A stretch of DNA of 64,000 nucleotides from an uncultured Candidatus Saccharibacteria bacterium (GTDB lineage: Bacteria > Patescibacteriota > UBA1384 > CAYJQE01). The stretch is taken from contig CAYJQE010000002.1 in NCBI GenBank assembly GCA_964372245.1, positions 206-64,205 of the forward strand. Direction: 5' to 3'. Within the stretch, counting starts at the first letter, position 1. Each line of letters starts with the position of its first letter. Below, one piece after another: positions 15,090 to 60,153 of the stretch. The position numbers were made by a program, and so were the translations under genes. Under the pieces are notes generated by a model that saw only the letters and a list, made by a program, of their open reading frames with translations, ran no database searches and was not told the origin of the DNA.

Positions 15090-15092
15090 AGG

Positions 15093-18000
15093 CTATTTTT
15101 TGCCAGCCGGTTTCTTCTCGGAGTTAAACCAGAGAATTAGCAGAAAGAGGAGAAAGAGCAGACTGATCAGGTTGGCCAAAGCGAACCGAGTCTGATTCTT
15201 AAAATTAAGTTCGAGCTCGACTCTTTCCCCAATCGGCGGCATGAGAAAACCTTGGGCGAAGTGATTGACTGTCAGCCGCTCGGCCGCCACCGGTCTCTGA
15301 TCGATAAGGACCTGCCAGTTTGGGTTTTTCGACTCGAGAAAGGTCAATAAAAAGGGCGAATCGGTCTTCTCGATGGTCATCTTGGCCCGAGTTGGCGAGA
15401 GTCTCTGATAGTCGGAGATCGCGACCCTGTCCGGCTCGACCTTGAGAGATTTTTCGATAAAGATTGTTTCTAGGGGTTTGGCTTTTTCTCTCAAAACAAT
15501 ATTCGTCAGGCCGATCGTTGATCCCTCTTTGTCGCCGACAGCGAAAAAACCGAGCTCGGTTTTCTTTCCAGCTTTGAGACTAAGAGTTTGGTTGTAATGT
15601 CGCCAACCGACGTGTTTGCCAAGATAGCCGGCGATAACCGCTTGTCGTTCAGAGTCTCCGATCTGCTCGAGCTTGAGATCGAGCGTCTGGTCGTGGCGCC
15701 GCTGGCCGATTTGATTGCTAAGATAGCCGGCGATAACCGCTTGTCGTTCAGAGTCTCCGATCTGCTCGAGCTTGAAACCGATCGGCGAGTCTGAACCTTG
15801 AGCCATAAAATAGTCGAATCCAAGCTCATAGTCGCCCTCTTTCGTAACCGCCTGAAGCTTGGTCGTAAGCTCAACCTCTCGGTTTACCCGGTCGGTCTGA
15901 AGAGTCAGAAATTTTTGCCCGTCCTCTCTAAGGCTAAATTCAAAACATCGCTGGCAGGGATTTTCGATCTGCCAACCTTTGAGGCCCTGCTTGAAATCGG
16001 GATTGAGAATCAAGTTCTCGGATTGCCGACCCTCGCCCGAAGTCCGAATCTCAAACTCGGCTTTCTTGGGCGTTTGAGGTCTGGTCTTGGGCTCGGTTCT
16101 CGGTTGAGCGAGATAGATGATCGGCTTTGACTCGATCAATCTTGATGCCCGATTCTCAGCTTGCCGCCAGCGATCTTCCGGGACGACGATCAATCGGGAA
16201 ACGGCGTTAAAACCGGGACCGCTTTCGAGTTGACCGGAAAGCTTGCCGCTTGGAAGCTCGACCCTTCCAAGATCGAACCAGTGGTAACCCTTGCTCTCTG
16301 ACCAGCCGGTCACGATTGGTTCGAGCTTTTGATCGTCGAGCGAGAGCTCGAGTTGGCTGCCGGCTGGCGACCTAAAGGCTTGGAGAAGGACTCGATAATC
16401 GCCAGTCTCTTCGAGTCTGATCTCAAAATTCAAGCGATCTTCGGTCTCCGAGAGAATATAATCCGAGGTCGAGTTGGCGACCGGCTCTTTCCACCACCAC
16501 TGGTTGAGATAGGCGGCGACAAAATGCTCGTTAGCGTCGGCGTCGGTTGGCGGGATGAACCGCCCCAAGTCATATTTGTATCTTGCCGGCAAGAAGGCGG
16601 TCGTGAGGGTCTGTTCGTGATCCTCGGTCAGCCAAAGAGCCGAAACCTGCTCGATCGCCTCGTCGGAAAGTTCATTCTGTTCGGCGGCGAAAAGAAGCGG
16701 CGGCGGACTTTGATAAACCGACAACTCCGAGACCCGATCTATCAGATCGAAATCGCCTACCAAGAGGGCGGCTTTTTTGGCCATGACCGGACCGATCGCT
16801 CGCTCGTTTTGAAAAACCGAGACCCGGCCAAGTCGTTCTCTGAGCGAGAGATCTTTTTGGCGAGGGAGGATTTTTTCCAGACGGGCTTTCTTGAAGAGCT
16901 CGAAAAGCCAAGGATTATCTCGGTTGACAATGAATGAGGGATAACGAGAGGTAAAGTTTCTGTCAAAGATGATCTGGCCGATATTGGCCGTCGCCGCCGA
17001 GAAGCCGAAGTTATCGGTCTGGCCAAAGTTAAGGAGATTTATCAAATAGGCCGAGAGAGCCGGCCAGGCGGATGGGTTGGCGCCGGTCCAGAAAACCGGT
17101 TTGGCCGGTGTTTGGGTGAAGGGATTGACGCCGGGCGAGGTTTCCCGGCCAAAGCCGTTGTTTTCAAGGCTCATCGGCTGGTTGGTCGGCGCGTGCATAA
17201 TTCGAAAGTCGGCCGGGTTCTCTCGGAGCCGCTGGTAGACGATTTGAGAATCTTTTGGCGCCCGATAAGGCACGAGCTTGTCCCGGATGTAGGGCAGATA
17301 ATAGACCGAACTTGAGACGAGCGGGATGAAGAAAAGAATCGGCAAGATCAAAAATCGGCGATTGGTCTCAAGCAGCCAGTCGGCGGCAATGGCGAAGAGC
17401 AGACTAAAAGCCAGAGTGGTCAGGGCTAAGGCGTATGAACTGTTTCTCAAGACTGTCATCGGAGCGAAGTTGTCGTAGAGCCACTGGTTGAGCTGGCCGA
17501 GCGGCGGATTGACGCCTTTGGCCAAGAGGAGGCTGAAAATCGAGAGAGCGAGGAGAAAGAGGACCAGCGGCCTTCGTTTTTTGACCTTCAAAGAGACGAC
17601 AATCAGGCAGAGAAGCAGGATTCGGCTTGCGATCCAAACCGTTTTAAGCCAAGGAATCTGGCTAATCGAGTTTAAAAAGTGATTGGTGAATCTGCCGCCC
17701 TGAAGTGAAAGAGCCGACAGAAGCGAGGGATGCCCGAGGATGACATGGGATTTGATGGCGGTCGAGAGCTGATCGGACAGGTCAGCCGATCGCGACAAGC
17801 CGAGGAGCTCGAAAAGGAGGATGAGAAGCGTTGGTTGGAGGAAGATCGGCCCAAGTAGGAAGCCCAAGCCGGATAAGACCAGTCGGCCTCTTTGAGACCA
17901 ATCGTTTTTTTGGCCAAGATGCCAGATCAGACTGAAGAGAAGCAGCAAAGCGCCGATGATCAAGAAGTTTAACGAGCTGGCGATGAGGCCAAAAACGACG

Positions 18001-18545
18001 GCCGTTTTCAGAATCTCCCCCGCCGATCGCCTTTTTGGCAAGAACCAGAGATCGCCCAAAAATTCCGGCAGGAAAACGTAGGACGGGAAAAACTTCAGGT
18101 AACCTTCGACCAGACTGTCAAAGAAAAGCGGAGTGACAAGATAAAGAAAGCCGGCCAGAAAGCTGGCCAATCTCGAAAGACCGAGTCTTCTTGCCAGTCT
18201 TGTCATCGTCAGACCGGCGATTGGCAAGAGAAAGATTGGATATTTTGAGATTATCGCCCCGCCAAAGCGGCCAAGATAGGCCGAGAGAGCCATAAGCTGT
18301 TCAACATAGTTGCCGAATTGGCGGCTTTGTTCAAAGCCGAAATAATTTTTGTTCCAGAAAAAAAGGCTGTTGAGTCCGAGTTTTTCGTTTTGCCAAGGCA
18401 TGGGTGGGATCGGCCAGTCGCCGGAAAGTCCGATCGTCCCGGGAGAAAAAATCAGTTGCCAGAGACCAAAACCGACGATCAGGCTAAAAAAAAGACCGGT
18501 GGCAAAGAGCCATCGTCTCTTGATAAACTCCCCAAACCAGATCAT
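15093..18545 (-). CDS. Giant YfhO-like/GT-C-type polytopic membrane glycosyltransferase candidate (1150 aa), paralog of the genes at 29108, 31481 and 35253
   Basis: N-terminal multi-TM block with 'GLSGDWPIPP' loop motif, long extracytoplasmic domain, C-terminal 'SxxNPNWQVLIDQRPV...FAQGF' block plus single C-terminal TM anchor. Shares blocks ('NNGFGRETSPGVNPF', 'IFDRNFTSRYPSFIV') with the 1263-aa paralog. Confidence 0.6.
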   Translation of the reverse strand: MIWFGEFIKRRWLFATGLFFSLIVGFGLWQLIFSPGTIGLSGDWPIPPMPWQNEKLGLNSLFFWNKNYFGFEQSRQFGNYVEQLMALSAYLGRFGGAIISKYPIFLLPIAGLTMTRLARRLGLSRLASFLAGFLYLVTPLFFDSLVEGYLKFFPSYVFLPEFLGDLWFLPKRRSAGEILKTAVVFGLIASSLNFLIIGALLLLFSLIWHLGQKNDWSQRGRLVLSGLGFLLGPIFLQPTLLILLFELLGLSRSADLSDQLSTAIKSHVILGHPSLLSALSLQGGRFTNHFLNSISQIPWLKTVWIASRILLLCLIVVSLKVKKRRPLVLFLLALSIFSLLLAKGVNPPLGQLNQWLYDNFAPMTVLRNSSYALALTTLAFSLLFAIAADWLLETNRRFLILPILFFIPLVSSSVYYLPYIRDKLVPYRAPKDSQIVYQRLRENPADFRIMHAPTNQPMSLENNGFGRETSPGVNPFTQTPAKPVFWTGANPSAWPALSAYLINLLNFGQTDNFGFSAATANIGQIIFDRNFTSRYPSFIVNRDNPWLFELFKKARLEKILPRQKDLSLRERLGRVSVFQNERAIGPVMAKKAALLVGDFDLIDRVSELSVYQSPPPLLFAAEQNELSDEAIEQVSALWLTEDHEQTLTTAFLPARYKYDLGRFIPPTDADANEHFVAAYLNQWWWKEPVANSTSDYILSETEDRLNFEIRLEETGDYRVLLQAFRSPAGSQLELSLDDQKLEPIVTGWSESKGYHWFDLGRVELPSGKLSGQLESGPGFNAVSRLIVVPEDRWRQAENRASRLIESKPIIYLAQPRTEPKTRPQTPKKAEFEIRTSGEGRQSENLILNPDFKQGLKGWQIENPCQRCFEFSLREDGQKFLTLQTDRVNREVELTTKLQAVTKEGDYELGFDYFMAQGSDSPIGFKLEQIGDSERQAVIAGYLSNQIGQRRHDQTLDLKLEQIGDSERQAVIAGYLGKHVGWRHYNQTLSLKAGKKTELGFFAVGDKEGSTIGLTNIVLREKAKPLETIFIEKSLKVEPDRVAISDYQRLSPTRAKMTIEKTDSPFLLTFLESKNPNWQVLIDQRPVAAERLTVNHFAQGFLMPPIGERVELELNFKNQTRFALANLISLLFLLFLLILWFNSEKKPAGKK
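15621..15818. repeat. 99-bp in-frame tandem duplication (2 copies) inside the 1150-aa membrane protein gene
   Basis: First 56 nt of each unit identical (aagatagccggcgataaccgcttgtcgttcagagtctccgatctgctcgagcttga). Encodes 'LEQIGDSERQAVIAGYL...' twice. Confidence 0.85.
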
Positions 18546-19090
18546 AATTTCTTTTCAAGCTCGAGTCTTTCGATCAAAACGATCTCATTGATCTGGTAGA
18601 GCCGGTCGGGCTGAACTGTCTTTGAAACCGCGAATCTTAAAGCCTCGATTTTTTCTTTAACCCTTTTTGCCAAAACGATCTCGCGACTGATCTGGGTGTT
18701 CCTTTTAATGATCGCTAAAGTTTCAAAATCTGAAGCCCCCTCTTTTTTGATCATCAGGCTAAAGTCAACCGGCATTCTGGCTAAACTGCTCTCGATGACG
18801 ATCTTCGAGAGCGGTTTTGGGGTTTTTAGGCTGACCTCGAAGGTTGAGAGCTGATCATCGTCGATCGAGCCAAACCAAAAAGAGTCGAGATCGCCGTCAA
18901 TCGTCGAGGAGGGACTGCCGCCTCTCTCTGGACGATAACCGAGGGTTGCCCGGCCGGAAACCGTCAATTCGCAGGCGCAGGGAAAATCTATGGTCTCTTT
19001 TTCGATTTTGACGATTGTGACAACCCGACTGATGAGGAAGAGAAAAAACAGACCGTTTAAGAACCAAAAAAATGCCGTCAAGCGTTTCAT
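18542..19090 (-). CDS. Small signal-anchored discoidin (F5/8 type C)-like domain protein, translationally coupled (ATGA overlap) to the downstream giant membrane protein
   Basis: Start taken at internal ATG 19090 ('MKRLTAFFWFLNGLFF' signal/anchor). 'DGDLDSFWFGS' matches the discoidin-like block of the 24464 protein. Stop TGA overlaps ATG of the 15093-18545 gene. Confidence 0.5.
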   Translation of the reverse strand: MKRLTAFFWFLNGLFFLFLISRVVTIVKIEKETIDFPCACELTVSGRATLGYRPERGGSPSSTIDGDLDSFWFGSIDDDQLSTFEVSLKTPKPLSKIVIESSLARMPVDFSLMIKKEGASDFETLAIIKRNTQISREIVLAKRVKEKIEALRFAVSKTVQPDRLYQINEIVLIERLELEKKL

Positions 19091-19185
19091 TATGATCCAG
19101 TATAGCTTGAAAACGGTCGAGTTCTTTCTGAACCGGAGAAGATCTTGGCTTTGAGCCTTATCGCTGCTAGCCTGAAAGACGACCA

Positions 19186-20907
19186 ATGGTTAAATTTCGA
19201 TTAGCCGGAGATCAAGAACTGGCCAGCCCGATCGAGGCCGGTCTTTACGATCGGCCCTATTTTGAGACCCTTAATCGGGGTTTTCTCGACTATCAGGTCG
19301 GCGCGATTCATCCCAAACTTAAGAAGGCGGTCTCGATGATCAAGGGCGAGAATCGGCGAGTCCTTGATATTGGTTCGGGTCGAGGCGAGTTCGCGGCCAG
19401 CGCCGCCTCGGACGGCCACCTTGTGATCGGTCTTGATTATTCCCGCTCGGCCATCGAACTGGCCGAGGATTATGTCTCTCGTCTGCCGGCCGATGTCAAA
19501 GCTCGAATCGGCTTTGTGCAAAAGGACGCCAAGAGCCTTGGCTTTGAGTCGGAATCATTCGATGTCGTCTCGCTGCTTGACGTCGTCGAGCATCTCCATC
19601 CCTGGGAGCTCGACCGGGCGATTTCCGAGGTCTATCGAGTCTTAAAGCCGGGTGGCCAGCTGATCGTTCACACCAGTCCGAACCGACGGTTAATGGCTCC
19701 GGTCCGGTCTCTTGGTCGGCTTTTTGGCTTTAGGACAAAAAGCGAGCGGTATCACGTTAATGAGCAGACGCCAAAGTCAATCGGGGCTTACTTAAAGGGC
19801 TTCAAGTTCACAGTCGAACTGGAGCGGGACCGAGATTTCTGGGCTTGGATGTTTCGGCCCGGCGACCGGCTGTTATCGGTCGCGAAGTTAGCCGATTTTA
19901 TTGTTGATTTTCCTCTTTGGTCTTGGCTCTTTGATCGCTGGCCGCTGAATCGCGTGTTTGCGACCGATATCTGGATTGACGCTCGAAAAAAAATCGGCGG
20001 CGGTCGTCTGGTTTTAACGGAGGAGGGGGAACGGAGGCTTTCGAAGATTCTCTCGAAGGTCGGCGATCTCAATTTTCGACGACGGATCTTGACGATGCTT
20101 GAGTATCTCGATATTAAGGATGGCGAGACGATTCTCGATGCCGGCGCGGGCGAGGGCTTTTACAGCCTGATTTTTTCCGAGCTCTATCCCAATTCAACGA
20201 TCGAGGCCTTTGATTATGATCCCGAGCTGGTCTCAATGGCGAAGAGCTGGCTCAAAGAGAGACCGAAAGTGATGATCCGGCTAGCCGACATCGTCCGCCT
20301 GCCTTATCTCGATCAAACTTTCGATAAGATCGTTTGCACCGAAGTTTTGGAGCATCTGCCCGACGACCGGATGGCGATGAAGGAGCTTTGGCGGGTTTTG
20401 AAGCCGGGCGGGACTTTGGCCATCACCGTTCCGAATCGTAACTATCCGCTCCTCTGGGACCCCCTGAACAAAATCAGGGAGCTTCTTCGTCTCGGTCATT
20501 TTTCCGGCCGACACGGTCTGCTTGGCGGCATCTGGGCGCTCAACCACTTTCGCCTTTACTCCCCGCTTGAACTTAAAGATCTGGTCGAGAAAAGCGGCTT
20601 TCTTTGCCGAGATCTTCGGGGCTTGACCCATTACGGTCTGCCCTTTAATCATCTGATCCTTTATCTTGGCAAGCAGTTTTACACCAAACTGCCGGTTCCG
20701 GAATCGATTCGGAGGGAGATGGAGAAATTTGAGTGGGACAGGGGAGAGAAGGGTCAAAAGGCTGAAAACCGGGGATTGGGTCTCCTCAAGGCCGGGCTCT
20801 GGCTGCTCAGGCTCACCGATAGTCTGAACGATCATTTTCATAATGAACACAATCTTTCGGTCTCGAGCATGGCGGTCTCGGCCAAGGCCGTGAAACCTAA
20901 AAGCTAA
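19186..20907 (+). CDS. Tandem two-domain class I SAM-dependent methyltransferase
   Basis: Two separate motif-I/post-I sets: 'VLDIGSGRGEFA...VLKPGGQLIV' and 'ILDAGAGEGFYS...VLKPGGTLAI'. 573 aa. Confidence 0.75.
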   Translation: MVKFRLAGDQELASPIEAGLYDRPYFETLNRGFLDYQVGAIHPKLKKAVSMIKGENRRVLDIGSGRGEFAASAASDGHLVIGLDYSRSAIELAEDYVSRLPADVKARIGFVQKDAKSLGFESESFDVVSLLDVVEHLHPWELDRAISEVYRVLKPGGQLIVHTSPNRRLMAPVRSLGRLFGFRTKSERYHVNEQTPKSIGAYLKGFKFTVELERDRDFWAWMFRPGDRLLSVAKLADFIVDFPLWSWLFDRWPLNRVFATDIWIDARKKIGGGRLVLTEEGERRLSKILSKVGDLNFRRRILTMLEYLDIKDGETILDAGAGEGFYSLIFSELYPNSTIEAFDYDPELVSMAKSWLKERPKVMIRLADIVRLPYLDQTFDKIVCTEVLEHLPDDRMAMKELWRVLKPGGTLAITVPNRNYPLLWDPLNKIRELLRLGHFSGRHGLLGGIWALNHFRLYSPLELKDLVEKSGFLCRDLRGLTHYGLPFNHLILYLGKQFYTKLPVPESIRREMEKFEWDRGEKGQKAENRGLGLLKAGLWLLRLTDSLNDHFHNEHNLSVSSMAVSAKAVKPKS

Positions 20908-20915
20908 TTTTTCCC

Positions 20916-21794
20916 TTGCTCGGCCAACTTAGCGGGCTTTTCTGGTCGTTTCGGCCAAACCAGTGGGTCAAAAATCTGGTTGTCTTAATTCCGCTGTTCT
21001 TTGCCGGCCAGCTCTTGAATCCCGACCTTTTTCGGTTGGCTTTGGCCGGAGCGCTGCTCTTCATTCTTGCCTCATCGGCCGCTTATTTGATCAACGATCT
21101 CTTCGATCTCCCGCTTGATCGGAAACTGCCGGTCGGTCTCAAGCGACCGATCGCTCGAGGTCGGGTCTCGACAAGGCTTGTGGCTTTCGCGATCGTCCTT
21201 CTTGTTTTCGGAGCGATTTCGATCTCGTTCAAACTTGAGCCGAAGTTTGGCTTGGTCATTCTTGGTTATCTGATCTTAAACATCCTCTACTCGGCCGGTC
21301 TTAAACAGCTGGCGCCGCTCGACGTCTTTATTGTCGCCTTGGGCTTTGTTCTCCGGGTGATCGGCGGCAAGGTTTTGACCGATCTGCCGAGCAGTCCCTG
21401 GCTCTTTTTGGGAACATTTTTTATCGCCCTCCTGCTTGTCCTTTCGAAGCGCTTTGTCGAAGCGAGGCTTTTTCTCGGGCGGGCGGTTGAGAAAAGGCGG
21501 GCCATTGGTCTCTATCAACCGGAACTCTTAAAATCCTGGTTAAATATTGCCGTCGCCGCCGTCCTCGTCGTCTACGCTCTCTACTCGATTGATTCCGAGG
21601 TTGTCGCCGCCTCGGCTCGGAGCGATCTCTTTGTCTACTCGATCGTCTTCGTGACCTTCGGTCTTTTTCGCTATCTTCAGCTGCTTTATCAGGGGGAAGA
21701 GGCCGGCTTTCTCGGTCCCTTAAAACGCGACCCGGCCTCCTGGCTGAACGGACTCTTCTGGCTTGGTTATACGGGCTTTATTCTCTATTTCTAG
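20916..21794 (+). CDS. UbiA-family prenyltransferase, decaprenyl-phosphate phosphoribosyltransferase (DPPR synthase)-like
   Basis: 'RPNQWVKNLVV' N-terminus and 'INDLFDLPLDRK' NDxxDxxxD motif characteristic of the Rv3806c-type subfamily. ~8 TM. TTG start. Confidence 0.65.
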   Translation: MLGQLSGLFWSFRPNQWVKNLVVLIPLFFAGQLLNPDLFRLALAGALLFILASSAAYLINDLFDLPLDRKLPVGLKRPIARGRVSTRLVAFAIVLLVFGAISISFKLEPKFGLVILGYLILNILYSAGLKQLAPLDVFIVALGFVLRVIGGKVLTDLPSSPWLFLGTFFIALLLVLSKRFVEARLFLGRAVEKRRAIGLYQPELLKSWLNIAVAAVLVVYALYSIDSEVVAASARSDLFVYSIVFVTFGLFRYLQLLYQGEEAGFLGPLKRDPASWLNGLFWLGYTGFILYF

Positions 21795-21964
21795 TTGAAA
21801 TCGAAACTTCGGCCGAAAAACTAAACAAAACGATGGCTGAAAAACCGACGGCCAGCCCGGAAAGAGACGATCTCTTTCGATGATCGGTCTTCGTTCAAAC
21901 GGTCGGTTTTTTTCAAATCGCGCGGCTTTAGGTTTTTGGCCGCGAATTCGCTAATCTCGATTGA

Positions 21965-22294
21965 GTGGCCTATTTTTTGCTCTTTCTCGCCTCTTTGGCC
22001 AATGCTTTGGCCAATCTTTTTATTCGGGCGGCCTCTTTCGAGCCGTTCGGTCTTAACCGTCTTTTTAAGCCCGCCAGCTGGTTTGGCATTCTGCTCTTTC
22101 TGGTCGCTCTCGCGCTTTACTCCGAGAGCCTTCACCGGCTCGGAATTGTCGTCTCCTACCCAATCTTCGGCCTTTTGAGTCTGTTTTTGATTATCTTTTT
22201 CGGTTACCGGCTTTTTCAAGAACCGATCTCGGCCAGCCAGATTCTTGGTTTTCTTTTGGCCGGGCTGGCGATTGTTCTTATCAGCCGGGGTTAG
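21965..22294 (+). CDS. Small 4-TM SMR/ArnE-ArnF-like (DMT superfamily) membrane protein, candidate lipid-linked sugar flippase subunit
   Basis: 109 aa, four hydrophobic helices. GTG start. Adjacent to the UbiA-like gene. Confidence 0.5.
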   Translation: MAYFLLFLASLANALANLFIRAASFEPFGLNRLFKPASWFGILLFLVALALYSESLHRLGIVVSYPIFGLLSLFLIIFFGYRLFQEPISASQILGFLLAGLAIVLISRG

Positions 22295-23364
22295 AAAAAG
22301 GCCTTGGCGAGCTTGAGAATCCCTTCTTTAACCGGCCGACGGTGGGTCGTGCCGTAGCGCTTGGCATAAAAAGCTCGATGCTCTCGATACCAGCTCAAGG
22401 CGGCCAAAAGCAGATCGAGGTTCGAATCCTTTGACCGCCAGCCAAGAACCCTCTCGGCCTTCCGGCAATCAAAGTAAAAAGCCGCGTCCGGAGTCTCAAA
22501 GTGCCAGTCAACCAGAGGCGAGAGACCGAGCCGATCGAGACCCCTCAAGGCGATTTTCGCCAGTTTGGGATTGATTGGTCTGACCCTTGATTTTGAGCTA
22601 ACCGCTTGGGCCAGAGCTTCGAGATCGGCCTTGACGGTCTGGTAGCTTCTCGCTCCGAGGTTGAAATCTTCGTTTTTGGCCTCTTTCCGAAGAAGAGCGA
22701 TCAGGCCGTTTACGACATCTCGACTCGAAACTAGCTGGAAGAGGTTCTCGCCCGAACCAATGATCGGAATCTTTCTCCCCTCGCTTATCCAGTCAAAGAG
22801 GAGAGCGAAGATTCCCAGTCGGCCCGGACCGACGATCGTTCGCGGTCTTAAAATCGAGAGATCGAACCGGCTGTTTCGGCTTGTTCGACAGAGCTCTTCG
22901 GCCAAAAACTTTGACCGGCCGTAGTCGCCAAGCGGCGCCAGCCGGGTCTGTTCGGTGATTGGCAGATCGAGCTCGCGTGGTCTGCCATAAACCGCGCTGG
23001 TCGAAACAAAAATAAACTTTTCGGTTCTTCCCTTGGCCAGCTCGAGCAGCCTTTTTGTCGCCTGAACATTGACCCTCTCATAATTTTTTCCAGCCTTGGC
23101 GATCGGCAAGACGGCGGCGAGATGAATTACATATTTAACCTTTGAGGCGGCCCTTTCAAGGGCCTTTTTTTCGGTCAGGTCAGCCTTTTGATACTCGACC
23201 GTCAAAGGCAGCTCAACCGGTCGTTCGTCTCGGTCAATCACTCTGACCGAAAAACCCTCCGCCACTAATTTTTGGCAGAGCGGGATACCGAGAAAACCGG
23301 CCCCGCCAGTCACCAGGACCAGATCCCCCTTGCCGTTTTTTCGAGCCGTTTTGACCGCTCTCAT
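22291..23364 (-). CDS. NAD-dependent epimerase/dehydratase (extended SDR)
   Basis: 'LVLVTGGAGFLGIPLCQKLVAEGFSVRVIDR' Rossmann motif and 'YGRSKFLAE' YxxxK. Confidence 0.75.
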   Translation of the reverse strand: MRAVKTARKNGKGDLVLVTGGAGFLGIPLCQKLVAEGFSVRVIDRDERPVELPLTVEYQKADLTEKKALERAASKVKYVIHLAAVLPIAKAGKNYERVNVQATKRLLELAKGRTEKFIFVSTSAVYGRPRELDLPITEQTRLAPLGDYGRSKFLAEELCRTSRNSRFDLSILRPRTIVGPGRLGIFALLFDWISEGRKIPIIGSGENLFQLVSSRDVVNGLIALLRKEAKNEDFNLGARSYQTVKADLEALAQAVSSKSRVRPINPKLAKIALRGLDRLGLSPLVDWHFETPDAAFYFDCRKAERVLGWRSKDSNLDLLLAALSWYREHRAFYAKRYGTTHRRPVKEGILKLAKAFF

Positions 23365-23438
23365 TTTTTGATCTTTCGCCCTTTAGGCCTTCAATCTAAT
23401 CGTTCGGTCAGTGGGGAAGTCAATGAGACTTTTAAACG

Positions 23439-24437
23439 TCAGGTGAGCCGACCGTTGGCCTCTGCCCACTCAACCGCCCGCTCGATAGCTTCCTCGACCG
23501 TTCTTTTTGGTCTTAAGCCGAGGAGCTTTTCCGCTTTTTGGCCGGAGGCGGCGATGGCTCGCGTCGTCTCGCCAAGAATATGGAGGGTTGGGTTGTAGAT
23601 TCCCAGTCTGGCTGTCAAAAGATCGAGCCTCTCGGCCAAAATCGCCGGCCAGGCCGGGAATCGCCTGATCCTCAACTCCACCTTGAGGGCTTTGGCCAAG
23701 AGAGCGAGGAACTCGCCGGTTCGGTAGGGCCGGTTAGAAACGATCCAAAACAGCTCGCCAGCCGCCCTTTTGTGAGCGACGGCAACGATCATCGCCTCGA
23801 CCAAGTTCTCGACCGGCGTGAAACTTCGTGGCTTGTCAGCGGAGCCGAAAATTGGCACTCGGCCTTGTTTGACCAGTTTCATTAAGACGGTCATTCGCTC
23901 GGGCTGCTCTTCGCCAATATACATTGATGGTCGAAGAACGACCGTTTCAAGACCTTGGCCGTGAGCGGCCAGGACCGCCTCTTCGGCCAAGAGTTTGCTC
24001 TTGCCGTAAGGGCTCTCCGGTCTCGGTTCGTCTTCCTCGGTCATCGTTCGATTGAGTCGGTCGGAAAAACCGGCCGCCGCGTTCGAGCTGACAAAAATAA
24101 AACGGCCGGCTCGGTCTTTGGCCGCCTCAAGCATATTTTTTGTCCCTTGGCTGTTTACCTGATAAAAGGAGCTTGTAGTTTTTGGATGGATGACGCCGGC
24201 GGCGTGGAAGACAATGTCGGCCGGTTCCTTAAAGAGAGCCTTTAAACTCTCCTTATTGGCGACATCGCCGATCTCGACCTTGATCTTCGAAGCAATATCC
24301 GGCGGCAGTCGGTCAGAGTCGGCCTCTCTGACGAGAGCGACAATCTTAAAGCCCTCGTTCAAGAGCCGACGGGCCAGCCGGTTGGCCAACCAGCCGGGCA
24401 GACCGGTGATCACCGATTTTCTCTTCAAATCGCTCAT
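23439..24437 (-). CDS. NAD-dependent epimerase/dehydratase (extended SDR)
   Basis: 'VITGLPGWLANRLARRLLNEGFKIVALVR' and 'YGKSKLLAE' YxxxK. Confidence 0.75.
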   Translation of the reverse strand: MSDLKRKSVITGLPGWLANRLARRLLNEGFKIVALVREADSDRLPPDIASKIKVEIGDVANKESLKALFKEPADIVFHAAGVIHPKTTSSFYQVNSQGTKNMLEAAKDRAGRFIFVSSNAAAGFSDRLNRTMTEEDEPRPESPYGKSKLLAEEAVLAAHGQGLETVVLRPSMYIGEEQPERMTVLMKLVKQGRVPIFGSADKPRSFTPVENLVEAMIVAVAHKRAAGELFWIVSNRPYRTGEFLALLAKALKVELRIRRFPAWPAILAERLDLLTARLGIYNPTLHILGETTRAIAASGQKAEKLLGLRPKRTVEEAIERAVEWAEANGRLT

Positions 24438-24463
24438 TAAGCCTTTAGTGTAGACTAGAAGAA

Positions 24464-26461
24464 ATGGTGTCAGAAAGGAATGTTAGAGTTCTCATCTGGT
24501 CAACTATTCTGGTTCTGGCGGTTTTGGCAGTCGGTCTTCTCAGCTTCAGGGCTTCAAAGTTCGAGCGACTTTCGCCGGCGACAATCACCGACGACCCGAA
24601 TCTTTCTTACTCGACATTGGGCTCTCGATCGAGGCCCGAAAATGTCGGAGACGGCGATCTCTTCACCTTCTGGACCGGCAACACTCAACCCTCGAGCAAG
24701 AATTGGCTCGAGTTTCGCTTCGACCAGCCAGTCAATCTCAATCGTGTTGTTTTGAGTTCGAACAAAGCCCGATTTCCGAAAAAGATAACAGTTCGGTCAG
24801 AGATCGTTCCGACCGAGGGTCCAGAACAGGGGCTGAAAGTTCTTCAAGAGGTTGAGACTTTTAGAGTCAGAGGGCCGCGCGTCAGACTCAAACTCCCTCA
24901 ACCGGTCATCTCGTCCCGATTCATGCTCTGGTTCGAAGAGGGCAATATTAATGACGGCAAGATTGAGATTCATGAGGTCGAGTTGCTTAGTCAAAGAGAT
25001 CGTGATCTGATGGCGGGTTTAAGTTCGAGTCTCCGGTCTCTCGGACTGGCTGGCCTTGCGATATTGGTTGTTCTGGCCATTCACCTGCTATTTCTTTTTG
25101 TTGGTGGCCGTCCTCGATCAAGTCGAGCAATTGATCTCATGGTTGGCTATGGCCGGGGACTGGCCCTCTTTGGAGTGATCGGGATCTCTGTCGGTCTTGG
25201 CTCGACACTTCTAGCCTGGCTTGGTCTCCTCTTTGCCGTTATCCAAATTATCTTGGCCGTCAGGGAAGGTTCTCTTTTGGGGCTCATTCAATCAAGAGTC
25301 TTTAAGCTCCTTGCGGCCAGCCAACTCATCGTCCTTTTGATACTGATCTTTCGCCTGATAGTTGAGGGCTTTTTCTTTCAGGCAGACTTTTTGCAGCCAT
25401 TTTATCTTAGTCAATTGGTTGAGACCGGCCAGTCGCTCTTTTCAGAAAAAGCGGTCGAGACCCTTTTTGGTTGGCAGGCCCTTGATCGGACGCCCTTGCT
25501 CTCGGTAATTTTTACCGGCTTGAGTGGATTTTCCGGCCTCTCATTTAGTCTCTATGTCCTGCTTCAAGCCGTTCTGGCTAGTCTCTTGAGCTTGGCCGCT
25601 CTCTCATTGCTTGAATTTCTTTCAATCAAGGAAAATTGGCGACAAAACCTCGCTCTCCTAGTCGCCATCTCGCCCTATTTCTTGATCACTGGCGCGATTT
25701 ATCCAACCCGGCCGGTCGTCGCCTTTTTCTTGGTTCTTTCGGTCATTGTTTTGTTCCAAAGCCAAAACCTGAAAAGCGGTCTCCTGGCTTCCTTGTTCGC
25801 CGCTTTGGCCTTTCTGGCCCACCCAATGGCTCTTTTTTACATCCCCCTTTTTGCGATCGGCTATCTCGTTGAGAAGAAGAACCTCCTCTCAACATTGGTT
25901 TTTCTGCTCTTGCCGGGATTGAGCTATCTTGGCTTTACGATTGCCGGCCGATTGCTCGAGATGCCTTCCCGGCTCTTTCTCTATTTCTTCGCGGTCAAGG
26001 ACGAATATGAGTACTTTCAGTTTAGTCGGCCCGAGCTGATCGAACGGTTTCTCCAAACGCCAGTTATAGAGATAGTCGGCAATCGTCTCCAAAATCTCGG
26101 TTCGCTCTTTATGCCCCTTCAGAAGAGCTTCTTTGGCGATATCAGCCATCTCAACACCTGGCTGATTTGGGGCGCGCTCTTTTTCACCCTCCTGCCATTT
26201 TTGCTCCCAGCCTTCAAAAAAGTTTGGCGAGAGAAACGGCCGCTCTTGATTTATCTCGTCTTACTGCCAGCCCTCTTCCAAACCCTTTTTCTTGGCTTTC
26301 CGGCTCCCCAGGCATTGCTTTTCCCGCTGCCAGCCGTTCTGATCCTTCTAACACTCCTTTTCAGTCAGGCTTCGGCCCGGATGGAGCGCTATCTTTGGCT
26401 GGCCGGCCTTGAGTTTGCTCTGATCTTCCTGTTGCCGACAATTGTTGGCTATTCCGTCTGA
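24464..26461 (+). CDS. Fusion protein: N-terminal signal-anchor plus discoidin (F5/8 type C)-like domain followed by ~12-TM GT-C/ArnT-PMT-like membrane domain
   Basis: 'DGDLFTFWTGN...WLEFRFDQPVNLNRVVL' discoidin-like block homologous to ORF 18542-19090, then continuous hydrophobic helices to the C-terminus. Confidence 0.55.
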   Translation: MVSERNVRVLIWSTILVLAVLAVGLLSFRASKFERLSPATITDDPNLSYSTLGSRSRPENVGDGDLFTFWTGNTQPSSKNWLEFRFDQPVNLNRVVLSSNKARFPKKITVRSEIVPTEGPEQGLKVLQEVETFRVRGPRVRLKLPQPVISSRFMLWFEEGNINDGKIEIHEVELLSQRDRDLMAGLSSSLRSLGLAGLAILVVLAIHLLFLFVGGRPRSSRAIDLMVGYGRGLALFGVIGISVGLGSTLLAWLGLLFAVIQIILAVREGSLLGLIQSRVFKLLAASQLIVLLILIFRLIVEGFFFQADFLQPFYLSQLVETGQSLFSEKAVETLFGWQALDRTPLLSVIFTGLSGFSGLSFSLYVLLQAVLASLLSLAALSLLEFLSIKENWRQNLALLVAISPYFLITGAIYPTRPVVAFFLVLSVIVLFQSQNLKSGLLASLFAALAFLAHPMALFYIPLFAIGYLVEKKNLLSTLVFLLLPGLSYLGFTIAGRLLEMPSRLFLYFFAVKDEYEYFQFSRPELIERFLQTPVIEIVGNRLQNLGSLFMPLQKSFFGDISHLNTWLIWGALFFTLLPFLLPAFKKVWREKRPLLIYLVLLPALFQTLFLGFPAPQALLFPLPAVLILLTLLFSQASARMERYLWLAGLEFALIFLLPTIVGYSV

Positions 26462-29107: not shown

Positions 29108-31426
29108 ATGATGGCTCAAAGGTCAAATCCGAGGCTCAATCGGCCCTGGCCTTCGCTGGTCTTCAAAGGGTTTAAGACGAAGGCTGGCCGAGAGTTGATC
29201 TTTGTCCTGATTTTTTTTCTCGTCTCTTTGATCCCGACCTTTGTCAATGTTTCAAAACTCGATCGGGGCTTTCTTTCGATCGTTGACGCCGGGATTCCCT
29301 ATTATCCGAAATCGGAGCTGGGCGATCTTTTTCAGGCAATTGACGGTCGGTTTGGTTATGGCTTCGAAAGAACCAACTGGCAGGTTTTCTCAAAAAGCTT
29401 GCCCCTTTTCGGTCTCGTCGGACTTTTTAAGAATCATGAGACGGCCATCAGACTCTTTTTTAGTCTCTTGATTTTTGGCGCGATCTCAAGCGGCTTTCTT
29501 CTTTTCCGGCGAGCGGTAAGACGGCCGGTTCTGGCCGCCGCCTTAGCCGTCTTTTACGGACTCTCGACTCAAGTCTTCTTCTGGCTTCTCTATTCGCCCA
29601 ATATCGCGCTCGCTTATGCCGCTCTGCCGCTTCTTTTTTACAGCTTTCTCGAGTTTCACGACCGCTTGAAGGCCGGCTTTCCGACTCGCCATTTTTTGAT
29701 CTTTGGCTTAAGTTTTCTCCTTCTTCTCTCAGCCGATATCTCGTATGCCCTGGTCGGCCTTTTGGGTTTTTTTATTCTAGCTCCCTTTGTGATCTTGGCT
29801 CGAGGCCGGGCCGAAATTTTAGTTCGTCTCAAGACCTCGCTTCTCGCCCTCCTTTTTGCCTTGAGTCTCGGCCTCCTTGTCGTTTCCGGCTTGCTCTCCG
29901 GCCTGATCTTTTCGGGCAGCAAAAGCTATATTAACGCCGATTATTCGGCCGAAGCGGTCGAGTTTTCGGCCACTCGAGCCGACATCTTTTCCTCGATTCG
30001 GCTTGGGAGCGGCGCCCTATATCCCTTCGCCGACCTTGATCCGAGACCGACTCGCTTTTACGAGCATCTGGCCGTCAAGGAGCCAAGCGTCGTGATGATG
30101 CTCGGTCTCTTTCTTTTGGCCATCTTCTTTCGTCCTCGATCGCCCCTTGTCCGGGCCGCGATGTTCTTGGTCCTTTTAGGCGGCCTCCTTTCGGCCGGTC
30201 GTTGGCTCCCGAACTGGCCGCAATTTTATCAAAAGCTTTATCAAATTCCCGGCCTCTACATCGTTCGAAATATGGTCAAATTTAACTTTCTTGAACTGCT
30301 TGGCCTGTTTATCGTCGGAGCCTTTGTTTTCGATCGGCTTCTCGACCGATTCGCGACGGCTAAAGAGCGATCTTCAAAACTGGCCGGCGGCCTTGTGCTC
30401 TCTCTCCTCTTCGCGCCTTTCGTCATCGGTTCAGTCGGTTTTCTCTTCAGGGACATGGCCGGCCTCTTAAAGTTCTCCCGGCTGCCGGCCGATTATCATC
30501 AGCTGAATTCACTCATCGCCAAGGACGAGATTTGGCGACCGAACGAGCTCTTTCTCGGCCGGGGTTTTCGAATTTTCTTCTATCCGCTGAAAAATCCAGT
30601 TGAGCCAGAAAAATATACTTGGAACAGGACTTACGGCACCCAAAAGCCCTTTCTCGCGACACTCCTTGACCGGCCGAATAATCTCGATATTCCGATTGAG
30701 CAGCACCCGCCCTCGATTGACATCTTTAATATGCTCGGCGATCAGTTTTTGGAGGATCGGGTCTTAACCTTTTGGCGGGCGCTCGGCAATTTGAGCTATC
30801 GCTATCTGGTTTTTCGGAAAGACGTGCCCAAAGAGCTTGAGAACGGGCAGTCGGTCGAGCGGGTGAGAGACGGCCTTTTAACTCTCGACTCGGCTGGCTT
30901 CAAGCCCTTTTTTCAATCTGACAATCTGATCGCTTTTGAGACGCCGAGCCGGTTACTCCGGCCGATCGCTTACGCCGAGGGCGGTCGGATAGTTAAGGCT
31001 TCAAAATCATTTCATCGGTTGTCGATTGCCCCCGATTGGCGGGAAAATAGCGGCCGAGTGGCGGCCGTCATCAACTCCAACCGAGTTGATCGCTGGCTCG
31101 CTCACAAGCCCCGATTCTCGGGTCGGATGGGGGCTTGGCTGGCCGATCGGAACGCCCTGCTTTTTGGTGTTTCACTGATCCGGAATAGGCCCGATTCTCA
31201 AGCCTGCGAGGCCTATCTTGATCTGATCCACCATCGCGATCTCTCGGTCGGCAACTGTTTGGTCTTTGGCGCTTCGGCTGACGGCAATAATCCCGAGCTG
31301 ATCTTGGTCGAGCCGCTGGCCGATTATCTGACCCGCCAGATCAAATATCTCGCTCTCCTTCTGGCCGGCCTCCTCTTCCTCCTGACAAAAAAGGGGTCAG
31401 GAGCCTTTTTTTTTCGAAACTCTTAA
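29108..31426 (+). CDS. YfhO-like/GT-C-type polytopic membrane protein (772 aa), divergent paralog
   Basis: N-terminal ~10 TM, extracytoplasmic C-terminal domain, C-terminal TM anchor 'IKYLALLLAGLLFLL' plus basic tail. Same architecture as the three larger paralogs. Confidence 0.45.
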   Translation: MMAQRSNPRLNRPWPSLVFKGFKTKAGRELIFVLIFFLVSLIPTFVNVSKLDRGFLSIVDAGIPYYPKSELGDLFQAIDGRFGYGFERTNWQVFSKSLPLFGLVGLFKNHETAIRLFFSLLIFGAISSGFLLFRRAVRRPVLAAALAVFYGLSTQVFFWLLYSPNIALAYAALPLLFYSFLEFHDRLKAGFPTRHFLIFGLSFLLLLSADISYALVGLLGFFILAPFVILARGRAEILVRLKTSLLALLFALSLGLLVVSGLLSGLIFSGSKSYINADYSAEAVEFSATRADIFSSIRLGSGALYPFADLDPRPTRFYEHLAVKEPSVVMMLGLFLLAIFFRPRSPLVRAAMFLVLLGGLLSAGRWLPNWPQFYQKLYQIPGLYIVRNMVKFNFLELLGLFIVGAFVFDRLLDRFATAKERSSKLAGGLVLSLLFAPFVIGSVGFLFRDMAGLLKFSRLPADYHQLNSLIAKDEIWRPNELFLGRGFRIFFYPLKNPVEPEKYTWNRTYGTQKPFLATLLDRPNNLDIPIEQHPPSIDIFNMLGDQFLEDRVLTFWRALGNLSYRYLVFRKDVPKELENGQSVERVRDGLLTLDSAGFKPFFQSDNLIAFETPSRLLRPIAYAEGGRIVKASKSFHRLSIAPDWRENSGRVAAVINSNRVDRWLAHKPRFSGRMGAWLADRNALLFGVSLIRNRPDSQACEAYLDLIHHRDLSVGNCLVFGASADGNNPELILVEPLADYLTRQIKYLALLLAGLLFLLTKKGSGAFFFRNS

Positions 31427-31480
31427 CCGGCTTCGGTCCCTCTTCACCTTAAGAGCCCGAAGGGTTAGTCTGGGTGGGTA

Positions 31481-43733: not shown

Positions 43734-43958
43734 TCTTGGCCCGCCTCGTCCGGTTGAAGGGGTTTTCGATCTGGCTGGTTGGGAAAAATTTTGATTGACT
43801 CCATCCAGTCCTCATTATAGTCGTATTTTTTGATCGCTCTTTCAGTTTGGGGTCGGCGGATTCTGTCGGCCCGAGCCGGTGAGGCTTGAGAGGAGGGTCG
43901 AAGAAAGGGCTTCAGAGGCCTTTTACTCCCGACTCCAGCTTTTTGCTAGACTTGAGGA

Positions 43959-59986: not shown

Positions 59987-60153
59987 TCGGGTTCCCCGCC
60001 ATTCTCTCGATTTAAAAATTAAAGCCAACCGACCGGCTAGCCTCAAGATCGTTTCGACCGCCAAGTTTTTAGCCGGTCAATTGGCAGTGGGAAATAGGCT
60101 GGCGGCAGACCATTCAAAAATGTCCCTGTTCTGAAACTGGTAATCTGGACTAA

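What the first reader, a model, noticed from the sequence alone, without database searches (positions are those of the whole stretch)
18542..26461. Discoidin (F5/8 type C)-like domain found both fused to a GT-C-like membrane protein and as a stand-alone ORF translationally coupled to a giant YfhO-like protein
ORF 18542-19090 (-) encodes a signal-anchored ~180-aa protein whose blocks ('DGDLDSFWFGS', 'TFEVSLKTPKPLSKIVIES', 'INEIVLI') match the N-terminal extracytoplasmic domain of the 665-aa polytopic protein at 24464 ('DGDLFTFWTGN', 'WLEFRFDQPVNLNRVVLSS', 'IHEVELL'). The stand-alone gene's TGA overlaps the ATG of the 1150-aa YfhO-like gene (ATGA), implying stoichiometric co-expression. This fusion/fission pattern suggests the carbohydrate-binding domain is a dedicated acceptor-recognition subunit of these GT-C enzymes.
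Basis: partly seen in the sequence, partly recalled or inferred. Interest (0 to 1): 0.55.

Follow-up and report, generated by a model that had tools for sequence, protein, structure and literature searches.

The report
Stand-alone sugar-binding module beside AftD-like glycosyltransferase
A small membrane-anchored protein with a discoidin/CBM32-type sugar-binding fold is encoded just upstream of, and overlapping, a giant AftD-like membrane glycosyltransferase; the same domain is fused to a second membrane glycosyltransferase 6 kb away, so a module that such enzymes normally carry inside their own chain is here a separate gene.

Summary
The 182-aa ORF (18542-19090, -) has one N-terminal membrane helix followed by an F5/8-type-C / CBM32 beta-sandwich. 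The same domain subfamily forms the N-terminal outside domain of the 665-aa protein at 24464. The small gene's TGA overlaps the ATG of the 1150-aa gene (ATGA).

One label is wrong. The 1150-aa protein is not YfhO. It is a distant relative of mycobacterial arabinofuranosyltransferase AftD, which is also GT-C, and the window holds three more paralogs of it. The 665-aa protein is a PMT_2/ArnT-type GT-C.

Between these genes lie a DPPRS-like polyprenyl-phosphate phosphoribosyltransferase, an SMR-like candidate flippase and two SDR epimerases. Together these are the kit for lipid-linked pentofuranose donors.

The domain subfamily is very rare: four relatives among 1.84 billion representative proteins. 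Three of the four sit in or beside a GT-C enzyme and the fourth is fused to one. One stand-alone copy overlaps the start of an AftD-like gene.

The "acceptor-binding accessory protein" reading is therefore plausible and has precedent in the in-chain CBMs of AftD, EmbC and GT136. A physical, stoichiometric subunit is not shown, and six other AftD-like relatives lack such a partner. I rate it a new variant of a known kind, of moderate interest.

The parts
18542..19090 (-). Small gene, 182 aa plus stop. It encodes a signal-anchored F5/8-type-C / CBM32-like protein (P0001) and is the first cistron of a two-gene minus-strand unit.
   Evidence: Translation. Same gene call on Logan contigs. External-only HMM: 84.2 bits. 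AF2 pLDDT 76 and Foldseek match to 3nng, 2v72, 4a44.
19010..19066 (-). N-terminal transmembrane anchor, aa 9-27.
   Evidence: Hydropathy peak of 1.96. AF2 helix at residues 2-30. Relatives carry the same N-terminal helix.
18560..18949 (-). Beta-sandwich domain, aa ~48-177. Family-invariant residues are D65, W72, G74, R105, D162 and E169.
   Evidence: Alignment A2. AF2 strands at 72-177. Profile hits to CBM32 in the PDB at E 3.3e-8.
18542..18545 (-). ATGA stop/start overlap between the small gene and the 1150-aa gene.
   Evidence: Read directly.
19099..19104 (-). -10-like hexamer TATACT, 8 nt upstream of the ATG, with no Shine-Dalgarno motif. It may be the promoter of a leaderless transcript. 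This is an inference.
   Evidence: Upstream sequences. The same pattern occurs at other operon-first genes in the window.
15093..18545 (-). 1150-aa AftD-like GT-C glycosyltransferase (P0003). Hydropathy finds 8 TM peaks in aa 1-420 (the AF2 model shows more helices there), then a ~700-aa outside region with CBM6/35-like beta-sandwiches, then a C-terminal TM.
   Evidence: The family profile hits only AftD in the PDB, E 1.3e-5. Relatives hit PF11847. AF2 plus Foldseek put AftD in the top three, E 3.5e-9, with model pLDDT only 55. Hydropathy.
24464..26461 (+). 665-aa protein (P0002): TM helix, then the same F5/8-type-C domain, then a 13-TM PMT_2/ArnT-type GT-C module.
24596..24997 (+). F5/8-type-C-like domain of the 665-aa protein, aa ~45-178.
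   Evidence: BLASTP against the small ORF. Alignment A2. External HMM: 25.2 bits.
20916..21794 (+). UbiA-family protein whose best matches are decaprenyl-phosphate phosphoribosyltransferase (DPPRS). Candidate synthase of the lipid-linked pentofuranose donor.
   Evidence: NCBIfam NF008977: E 3.7e-50, 171 bits, below the 234-bit cut-off. Other UbiA subfamilies reach E 1e-14 at best, except the generic NF006088 'UbiA family prenyltransferase' model (E 2.3e-45). Pfam UbiA.
21965..22294 (+). 109-aa SMR-like small membrane protein. Candidate flippase for the lipid-linked sugar.
   Evidence: Pfam Multi_Drug_Res: 24.0 bits against a cut-off of 23.7. The role is inferred from Rv3789/ArnEF-type precedents cited in PMC11127046.
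22291..24437 (-). Two SDR epimerase/dehydratase-family genes (357 and 332 aa). Candidate epimerases of the lipid-linked pentose.
   Evidence: Pfam Epimerase at E 1.8e-40 and 2.7e-33. The role is inferred.
29108..38009 (+). Three further AftD-like paralogs: 772 aa (29108-31426), 1263 aa (31481-35272) and 918 aa (35253-38009).
   Evidence: BLASTP of 1150 against 1263 at E 2e-129, and against 918 at E 2e-32. hhalign of the 772-aa protein against the family: 97.6%, E 2.6e-12.

Best explanation
The small gene encodes a type-II membrane-anchored lectin-like module, made of one TM helix and a CBM32/F5-8-type-C beta-sandwich facing outside. It is the first cistron of a two-gene unit with an AftD-like GT-C glycosyltransferase, inside a large surface-glycan locus. 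That locus also makes a polyprenyl-phosphate-linked pentofuranose donor using a DPPRS-like enzyme, an SMR-like flippase and SDR epimerases.

The most likely role is that of an in-trans carbohydrate-binding module. It would bind the growing or finished acceptor polysaccharide at the outer face of the membrane and hold it near the GT-C active sites. This is what the in-chain CBMs of AftD, EmbC and GT136 ORF12 do. The 665-aa PMT_2-type enzyme carries the same module in cis.

Shown here: the gene structure, the fold, membership of the domain family, the GT-C nature of both partners, and the recurrence of the association in other contigs. Inferred: outside topology, sugar binding, the identity of the ligand, and any physical contact with the 1150-aa enzyme.
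For: - Fold and family.
- Operon structure: the ATGA overlap and a 95-nt divergent intergenic region upstream; the unit ends convergently at 15093.
- Partner is AftD-like.
- The 665-aa protein is PMT_2-like.
- Recurrence of the association. In L009 a stand-alone copy overlaps by 14 nt the start of a homolog of the window's 772-aa AftD-like protein (34% identity, E 2e-30). In L011 a protein with the domain fused to PMT_2 is followed after 84 nt by an 877-aa AftD-like gene (hhalign 99.8%). In L010 two copies are fused to PMT_2. In L008 a stand-alone copy lies between a PMT_2-like gene and a GT2 gene.
- Donor pathway genes lie next door.
- Literature: AftD has three CBMs in cis, and the structural homolog of its CBM3 is CBM32 entry 4A45 (bioRxiv 10.1101/2019.12.22.885152). 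The ORF12 CBM binds the acceptor O-antigen (PMC11127046).
Against: - Six distant AftD-like relatives have no adjacent copy. The window's 1263-aa and 918-aa paralogs have none either.
- The 1150-aa protein already carries CBM-like beta-sandwiches in cis, so an extra CBM is not obviously needed.
- The conserved residues are mostly those expected of the fold's core and calcium site (from general knowledge; not tested here), and no ligand site could be assessed.
- The ORF12 CBM was dispensable in vivo (PMC11127046).
- In L008 the overlapping downstream gene is a cytoplasmic-type GT2, not a GT-C.
- P0015 in L009 has no N-terminal TM as called. That contig has a gap and only 2x coverage.
- The subfamily has only 4 known relatives, so the statistics are thin.
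Confidence: 0.6

Rival explanations
1. It is an independent surface lectin or adhesin. The membrane-anchored CBM32 domain would bind the cell's finished surface glycan, tethering a capsule-like layer, or a glycan on a host or partner cell. It would be co-transcribed with the GT-C only because it belongs to the same surface-glycan locus, and would not assist catalysis.
For: - CBM32/F5-8-type-C domains are general lectin modules found in many unrelated proteins.
- Partner genes differ between loci: AftD-like in two loci (the 1150-aa type here, the 772-aa type in L009) and GT2 in a third.
- Most AftD-like relatives lack it.
- The window may come from a Patescibacteria-like episymbiont. H+-PPase best hits are 62-65% identical, which is weak evidence.
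Against: The same subfamily is covalently fused to GT-C enzymes in three independent proteins: P0002, P0012 (two copies) and P0017. That is hard to explain if it has no role with the enzyme. The linker after the TM helix is short, only about 20-40 residues, which keeps the domain at the membrane surface rather than at the cell periphery.
Confidence: 0.2
2. It is a protein-binding scaffold rather than a sugar binder. The beta-sandwich would act like APC10/Doc1 or other discoidin-fold protein-interaction modules, for instance to assemble or stabilise a multi-GT-C complex in the membrane.
For: APC10/Doc1 chains are among the best structural matches, E 2e-8. No ligand-binding residues could be identified.
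Against: Sequence-profile matches are to bacterial CBM32 sugar-binding modules, not to APC10. The genomic context is entirely glycan synthesis. GT-C enzymes with appended beta-sandwich domains use them to bind glycans (literature cited above).
Confidence: 0.12
3. It is not a functional separate gene. It would be a broken N-terminal extension of the 1150-aa gene, through a frameshift or assembly error, or a decaying remnant.
For: The ORFs overlap in different frames. The window's 665-aa protein shows that an N-terminal fusion of this domain to a GT-C exists. The small protein has no close homolog in 5.8 billion clusters.
Against: - DNA is identical in three assemblies from different runs.
- A direct fusion would invert the topology of the GT-C module. 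The domain is outside, whereas GT-C TM1 must start inside. The real fusions insert extra TM helices to solve this.
- The same two-gene arrangement with overlap recurs in L009.
- The full-length domain is intact and folds confidently.
Confidence: 0.03

Closest known systems
Mycobacterial AftD (GT-C arabinofuranosyltransferase; PDB 6W98; Pfam PF11847 plus CBM_AftD PF24607)
   Same: - Overall build: polytopic N-terminal GT-C module, a very large outside region made of beta-sandwich CBMs, and a return TM helix.
- AftD is the only solved structure hit by the family profile and the top structural match.
- Shared motifs: an Asp after TM1 (D43 here, D41 in AftD) and an 'LRN' motif.
- AftD uses a lipid-linked pentofuranose made by a DPPRS, and a DPPRS-like gene lies 2.4 kb away here.
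- AftD's third CBM is CBM32-like, the same fold as the small ORF.
   Different: - Here the CBM32-type module is a separate, membrane-anchored polypeptide, not part of the enzyme chain.
- The 1150-aa protein itself does not reach the Pfam AftD threshold.
- It lacks AftD's TM13-16/ACP-binding bundle and has a single C-terminal TM.
- The organism is not an actinobacterium.
- There are four paralogs in one locus.
Three-component extracytoplasmic pentofuranose systems (Kelly et al. 2024, PMC11127046; GT136 ORF12 with a C-terminal CBM)
   Same: The logic is the same: a polyprenyl-phosphoribose synthase, a flippase, optional epimerases, and a GT-C enzyme with an attached CBM that binds the acceptor polysaccharide.
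   Different: - The GT-C enzymes belong to different families (AftD-like and PMT_2-like, not GT136).
- The flippase candidate is SMR-like, not MATE.
- No phosphoribose phosphatase was identified.
- The CBM has a discoidin/CBM32 fold, and one copy is a separate gene.
CBM32 / F5-8-type-C modules of secreted glycoside hydrolases (e.g. C. perfringens GH89, GH84, ZmpB)
   Same: Same fold and the same sequence family.
   Different: Those modules are appended to soluble hydrolases or peptidases that degrade glycans. Here the module is tethered to the membrane by its own TM helix and is associated with glycan-synthesising membrane enzymes.
   Same: From general knowledge (not tested here), YfhO is also a large polytopic GT-C-superfamily membrane protein involved in cell-surface glycosylation.
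   Different: Neither the 1150-aa protein nor any of its relatives matches YfhO at E<=1. The detectable relationship is to AftD.

Membership tests
F5/8 type C (discoidin) / CBM32, for the small ORF and the 665-aa N-terminus | Match to Pfam PF00754 at or above the gathering score (28.2 bits) | tested here: not met
   The small ORF scores 22.6 bits (E 1.3e-4) and the 665-aa protein 19.1 bits (E 1.5e-3). Their relatives do pass: P0012 62.6, P0013 41.2 and P0017 34.6 bits. Six of seven family members match at E<=0.1.
F5/8 type C (discoidin) / CBM32 | Homology to established members shown by a family profile | tested here: met
   phmmer links the small ORF to P0012 at E 3.7e-16 and to P0013 at E 4.1e-10, in a library of 1.84 billion proteins. 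The A2 profile hits solved CBM32 domains 7jnb, 4a4a and 4a42 at E 3e-8 to 8e-7.
F5/8 type C (discoidin) / CBM32 | Distorted jelly-roll beta-sandwich fold | tested here: met
   AF2 model: pLDDT 76.2, pTM 0.66, strands across residues 72-177. Foldseek: 3nng (F5/8 type C) at E 1.8e-8, and CBM32 entries 2v72, 4a44 and 4zxe with target-normalised TM-score 0.76-0.82.
F5/8 type C (discoidin) / CBM32 | Binds a carbohydrate ligand | not testable with these tools
   This needs glycan arrays or binding assays. The conserved residues D65, W72, G74, R105, D162 and E169 do not identify a ligand site.
AftD-type GT-C (PF11847), for the 1150-aa protein | Match to Pfam GT-C_AftD at or above the gathering score (26 bits) | tested here: not met
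   The 1150-aa protein itself has no hit at E<=1. Its relatives P0009 (44.6 bits) and P0008 (29.8 bits) pass.
AftD-type GT-C | Colinear homology to solved AftD | tested here: met
   The A1 profile hits only 6w98/6wbx in the whole PDB, E 1.3e-5, with an N-terminal stretch (17-483) and a C-terminal stretch (1036-1098) in order. Foldseek top three are 6w98, 6wby and 6wbx at E 3.5e-9, but the model pLDDT is only 55.
AftD-type GT-C | Architecture: polytopic N-terminal module, large extracytoplasmic CBM-rich region, return TM helix | tested here: met
   Hydropathy: TM helices within aa 1-420, a soluble stretch at 420-1120, and a TM at 1121-1139. CBM6/35-type structural hits for the soluble part. AftD's TM13-16 bundle is absent.
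AftD-type GT-C | Essential acidic residue after TM1 (AftD D41) and arabinofuranosyl transfer from a decaprenyl-phosphate donor | tested here: inconclusive
   D43 in 'GDWPIPP' is invariant or nearly invariant in the family alignments. It lines up with AftD 'KLDLAINP' only after a 2-residue shift of the HMM alignment. Activity and donor are not testable here.
YfhO (PF09586), for the 1150-aa protein | Sequence match to the YfhO family model | tested here: not met
   No YfhO hit at E<=1 for the 1150-aa protein, its two large paralogs, or six relatives.
PMT_2 / ArnT-type GT-C (PF13231), for the 665-aa protein | Match to PF13231, or homology to proteins that match it | tested here: met
   There is no direct Pfam hit. 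Full-length BLASTP to P0012 gives E 9e-9. The membrane part alone (aa 185-665) against an alignment of PMT_2-positive membrane domains gives hhalign 94.6%, E 6.9e-8 over 248 columns. P0012 scores 37.4 and P0017 45.3 bits on PMT_2.
Three-component lipid-linked pentofuranose system (PMC11127046) | Polyprenyl-phosphate phosphoribosyltransferase present | tested here: inconclusive
   ORF 20916-21794 has decaprenyl-phosphate phosphoribosyltransferase models as its best hits (E 3.7e-50, 171 bits). This is below the equivalog cut-offs of 207-474 bits.
Three-component lipid-linked pentofuranose system | Flippase and phosphoribose phosphatase present | tested here: inconclusive
   An SMR-like 109-aa ORF scores 24.0 against a cut-off of 23.7 bits. 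No phosphatase was recognised among the ORFs scanned.

The most novel reading that the evidence does not exclude
The small protein is a true in-trans subunit. It would be a membrane-anchored CBM32 lectin that docks onto AftD-like, and perhaps other, GT-C polymerases of an arabinan-like pentofuranose pathway in an uncultured, possibly Patescibacteria, bacterium, and would set which acceptor glycan the enzyme extends. That would be a modular, exchangeable specificity subunit for GT-C enzymes, which are otherwise known only with covalently attached CBMs.
Probability: 0.3. Interest if true: 0.55.

Novelty: new variant of a known kind. Interest (0 to 1): 0.4.

Why it matters
GT-C glycosyltransferases that act on polymers (EmbA/B/C, AftD, GT136) carry carbohydrate-binding modules in their own chain. 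What those modules contribute, whether affinity, processivity or specificity, is still unclear, because they cannot easily be separated from the enzyme. A natural split version, in which the module is its own membrane-anchored protein, would give a clean system for asking that question.

The locus also shows that AftD-like enzymes, together with a DPPRS-like donor synthase, occur in multiple copies outside the Actinobacteria. This hints at arabinan-like or ribofuranan-like surface polymers in uncultured bacteria.

Tried and rejected
- YfhO assignment: rejected, no match.
- Word-seeded homolog searches found only the window proteins themselves for the small ORF and the 665-aa protein. The exhaustive phmmer search was needed.
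- A genome-contig scan with the 1150-aa protein found nothing. The source genome therefore could not be named, and conservation of the gene pair in close relatives could not be tested.
- A polymorphism or dN/dS test of the small ORF was impossible. The two other contigs carrying it are 100% identical in DNA.
- The promoter/terminator consensus scan of 14800-19500 was uninformative.
- No further copy of the domain exists in the window.
- A single-sequence PDB search was uninformative for all three proteins.
- The AF2 model of the 1150-aa protein is low-confidence (pLDDT 55). I used it only for the AftD top hit, which agrees with the sequence profile.
- A co-fold of the small protein with the 1150-aa enzyme could not be run, because there is no multimer mode.
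- Broken-fusion hypothesis: rejected on topology and on the identical assemblies.
- The 48-aa 'Bathyarchaeota' cluster mate of the 1150-aa protein does not visibly resemble it (no alignment was run), and I ignored it for taxonomy.

Full report
**What is in the sequence**

The minus-strand ORF 18542-19090 starts at the ATG at 19090 and encodes 182 aa (MKRLTAFFWF...). Its TGA overlaps the ATG of the 1150-aa gene 15093-18545 as ATGA. Upstream lies a 95-nt divergent intergenic region, and beyond it the plus-strand methyltransferase gene at 19186. Downstream, the 1150-aa gene meets a convergent GT4 gene at 15089. The minus-strand unit therefore has exactly two cistrons.

Gene callers on two independent Logan assemblies made the same 182-aa call.

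**Is the similarity real?**

- BLASTP between the two proteins gives 33% identity over 60 aa, E=3e-7. It is the small ORF's only cross-match among 41 window proteins.
- The word-seeded search of 5.8 billion clusters found only the proteins themselves.
- The exhaustive phmmer search of 1.84 billion representatives found four true relatives:
  - P0012, 954 aa, two copies of the domain, E 3.7e-16.
  - P0013, called as 206 aa (227 aa from the upstream ATG in L008), stand-alone, E 4.1e-10.
  - P0015, 184 aa, stand-alone, E 1.4e-4.
  - P0017, 642 aa, E 3.1e-4.
- The alignment covers the whole ~125-aa domain, with invariant D65, W72, G74, R105, D162 and E169.
- An HMM built from the external relatives only, scored against all 636 six-frame ORFs of the window, gives 84.2 bits for the small ORF, 25.2 bits for the 665-aa N-terminus and 3.0 bits for the best chance hit.
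- No third copy exists in the window.

**What the domain is**

Pfam F5_F8_type_C is sub-threshold for the two window proteins (22.6 and 19.1 bits against 28.2). It is above threshold for P0012, P0013 and P0017, and six of seven family members match it. The family profile hits solved CBM32 modules at E 3e-8.

The AF2 model of the small protein has pLDDT 76 and pTM 0.66. It shows an N-terminal helix (residues 2-30) and a beta-sandwich (72-177). Foldseek's best matches are an F5/8-type-C domain (3nng, E 1.8e-8), APC10/Doc1, and many sugar-bound CBM32 modules.

Hydropathy gives a single TM at aa 9-27. Relatives have clearly basic N-termini before the helix, so the domain most likely faces outside. 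That topology is an inference.

**What the partners are**

The 1150-aa protein has no YfhO hit.

- Its few distant homologs (21-27% identity in their best local alignments, one short 53% segment apart) include two that pass Pfam GT-C_AftD.
- A profile of the family hits only mycobacterial AftD in the whole PDB (E 1.3e-5), with N- and C-terminal stretches colinear.
- The AF2 model is poor (pLDDT 55), but its top three Foldseek hits are the three AftD entries (E 3.5e-9). CBM6/35 jelly rolls and STT3 follow.
- Hydropathy shows the AftD-like plan: TM helices in the first 420 aa, about 700 soluble residues, and one C-terminal TM.
- The window holds three more members of this family, of 1263, 918 and 772 aa.

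The 665-aa protein has a TM helix, the discoidin-like domain, and then 13 TM helices. Its membrane part alone matches an alignment of PMT_2-positive proteins at hhalign 94.6%, E 6.9e-8. It also aligns full-length with P0012. Both partners are therefore GT-C enzymes, from different families.

**Context**

Four kinds of gene lie between the two units:

- a double methyltransferase;
- a UbiA-family protein whose best NCBIfam matches by far are decaprenyl-phosphate phosphoribosyltransferase (E 3.7e-50, below the equivalog cut-off);
- a 109-aa SMR-like protein;
- two SDR epimerases.

The rest of the window is surface-glycan machinery: GT2 and GT4 enzymes, Wzx-like and Wzy_C proteins, UDP-GlcNAc 2-epimerase, and a B12 radical-SAM enzyme.

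This is the parts list of the extracytoplasmic pentofuranose pathways described for mycobacterial arabinan and for the three-component O-antigen systems (PMC11127046).

H+-PPase best hits are Patescibacteria MAGs at 62-65% identity. Other phyla reach about 60%, so the taxon is only weakly indicated.

**Does the association recur?**

Yes, in every locus that carries the subfamily:

- L009, from a groundwater 0.1-um fraction: stand-alone P0015 overlaps by 14 nt the start of a homolog of the window's 772-aa AftD-like protein (34% identity, E 2e-30).
- L011: P0017 (domain plus PMT_2) is followed after 84 nt by an 877-aa AftD-like gene (hhalign 99.8%).
- L010: P0012 has two copies fused to PMT_2.
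- L008: a PMT_2-like protein with a weak C-terminal copy, then stand-alone P0013, then a GT2 gene whose start overlaps it by 4 nt.

The converse does not hold. Six distant AftD-like relatives have no such neighbour.

**Mechanism**

AftD has three CBMs in its own chain. They bind long branched arabinans, and its flexible CBM3 resembles a CBM32 (bioRxiv 10.1101/2019.12.22.885152). EmbC's CBM is needed for efficient synthesis. The C-terminal CBM of GT136 ORF12 binds the unmodified O-antigen but is dispensable in vivo (PMC11127046).

The simplest reading is that the small protein is the same kind of module supplied in trans. It would be tethered at the outer membrane face and hold the acceptor glycan near the GT-C enzymes.

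A broken fusion is unlikely. Joining the two ORFs would invert the GT-C topology. The natural fusions insert extra TM helices. Three assemblies agree base for base.

Several things remain unshown: sugar binding, the identity of the ligand, physical contact with the enzyme, and stoichiometry. The 4-nt overlap is also found at 27995-27998 and 50522-50525. It is an ordinary operon feature here.

**Verdict**

This is a new variant (a CBM in trans, with its own membrane anchor) of a known kind (GT-C enzymes with acceptor-binding CBMs). It is known from very few, uncultured examples.

Noticed in passing
window 15590-15776 (-), aa 924-987 of the 1150-aa protein: A 33-aa (99-nt) tandem duplication, 'LKLEQIGDSERQAVIAGYL...' twice, with 80 of 96 nt identical. 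Both Logan contigs that carry this gene end at window position 15746, inside the first copy. The duplication may therefore be an assembly ambiguity, and the exact length of the 1150-aa protein is uncertain. TRF did not report it. The region is low-confidence in the AF2 model.
   Followed up: partly
window 19099-19104 (-), 24449-24457 region (both strands), 43945-43950, 60140-60145: Operon-first genes often have a -10-like TAnACT hexamer 7-9 nt upstream of the start codon and no Shine-Dalgarno motif. The divergent starts at 24437 and 24464 are only 26 nt apart. This suggests leaderless mRNAs. Shine-Dalgarno motifs are rare across the window.
   Followed up: partly
window 20916-24437: A DPPRS-like UbiA protein, an SMR-like 109-aa protein and two SDR epimerases sit next to five GT-C genes. 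This is an arabinan-like, lipid-linked pentofuranose donor pathway outside the Actinobacteria. No phosphoribose phosphatase was found.
   Followed up: partly
window 4744-6291 (+) and L010 3147-4646: A B12-binding radical-SAM enzyme in the glycan locus is homologous (26% identity, E 2e-36) to the gene immediately downstream of the double-discoidin PMT_2 protein P0012 in L010. That gene sits in a cluster with three more radical-SAM genes. This may indicate C-methylation or another radical modification of the sugar.
   Followed up: partly
window 38145-42268 (-): Two adjacent paralogous proteins carry three to four N_BRCA1_IG-like repeats. One of them, 794 aa, has an N-terminal subtilase S8 domain. 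The two genes overlap by 46 nt as called.
   Followed up: no
window 35253-35272: The 918-aa AftD-like gene starts 20 nt before the stop of the 1263-aa paralog. Three AftD-like genes (772, 1263 and 918 aa) lie in tandem on the plus strand.
   Followed up: no
cluster look-up for window 15093-18545 (-): The 90%-identity cluster of the 1150-aa protein has as its representative a 48-aa 'Candidatus Bathyarchaeota' protein (MCK4474244.1) whose sequence does not visibly resemble it (no alignment was run). This looks like a database clustering artefact.
   Followed up: yes
L009 370-379 and 480-1034: The contig has a run of N and about 2x coverage. P0015 is called from a TTG start and lacks the N-terminal TM helix seen in all other family members, although it has a C-terminal one. 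Its true start and topology are uncertain.
   Followed up: partly
L011 5827-6936: The related locus with P0017 encodes an RGP-family protein (Pfam PF03214). From memory, not tested here, this family includes UDP-arabinopyranose mutase, which would be another hint that these clusters handle arabinofuranose.
   Followed up: no
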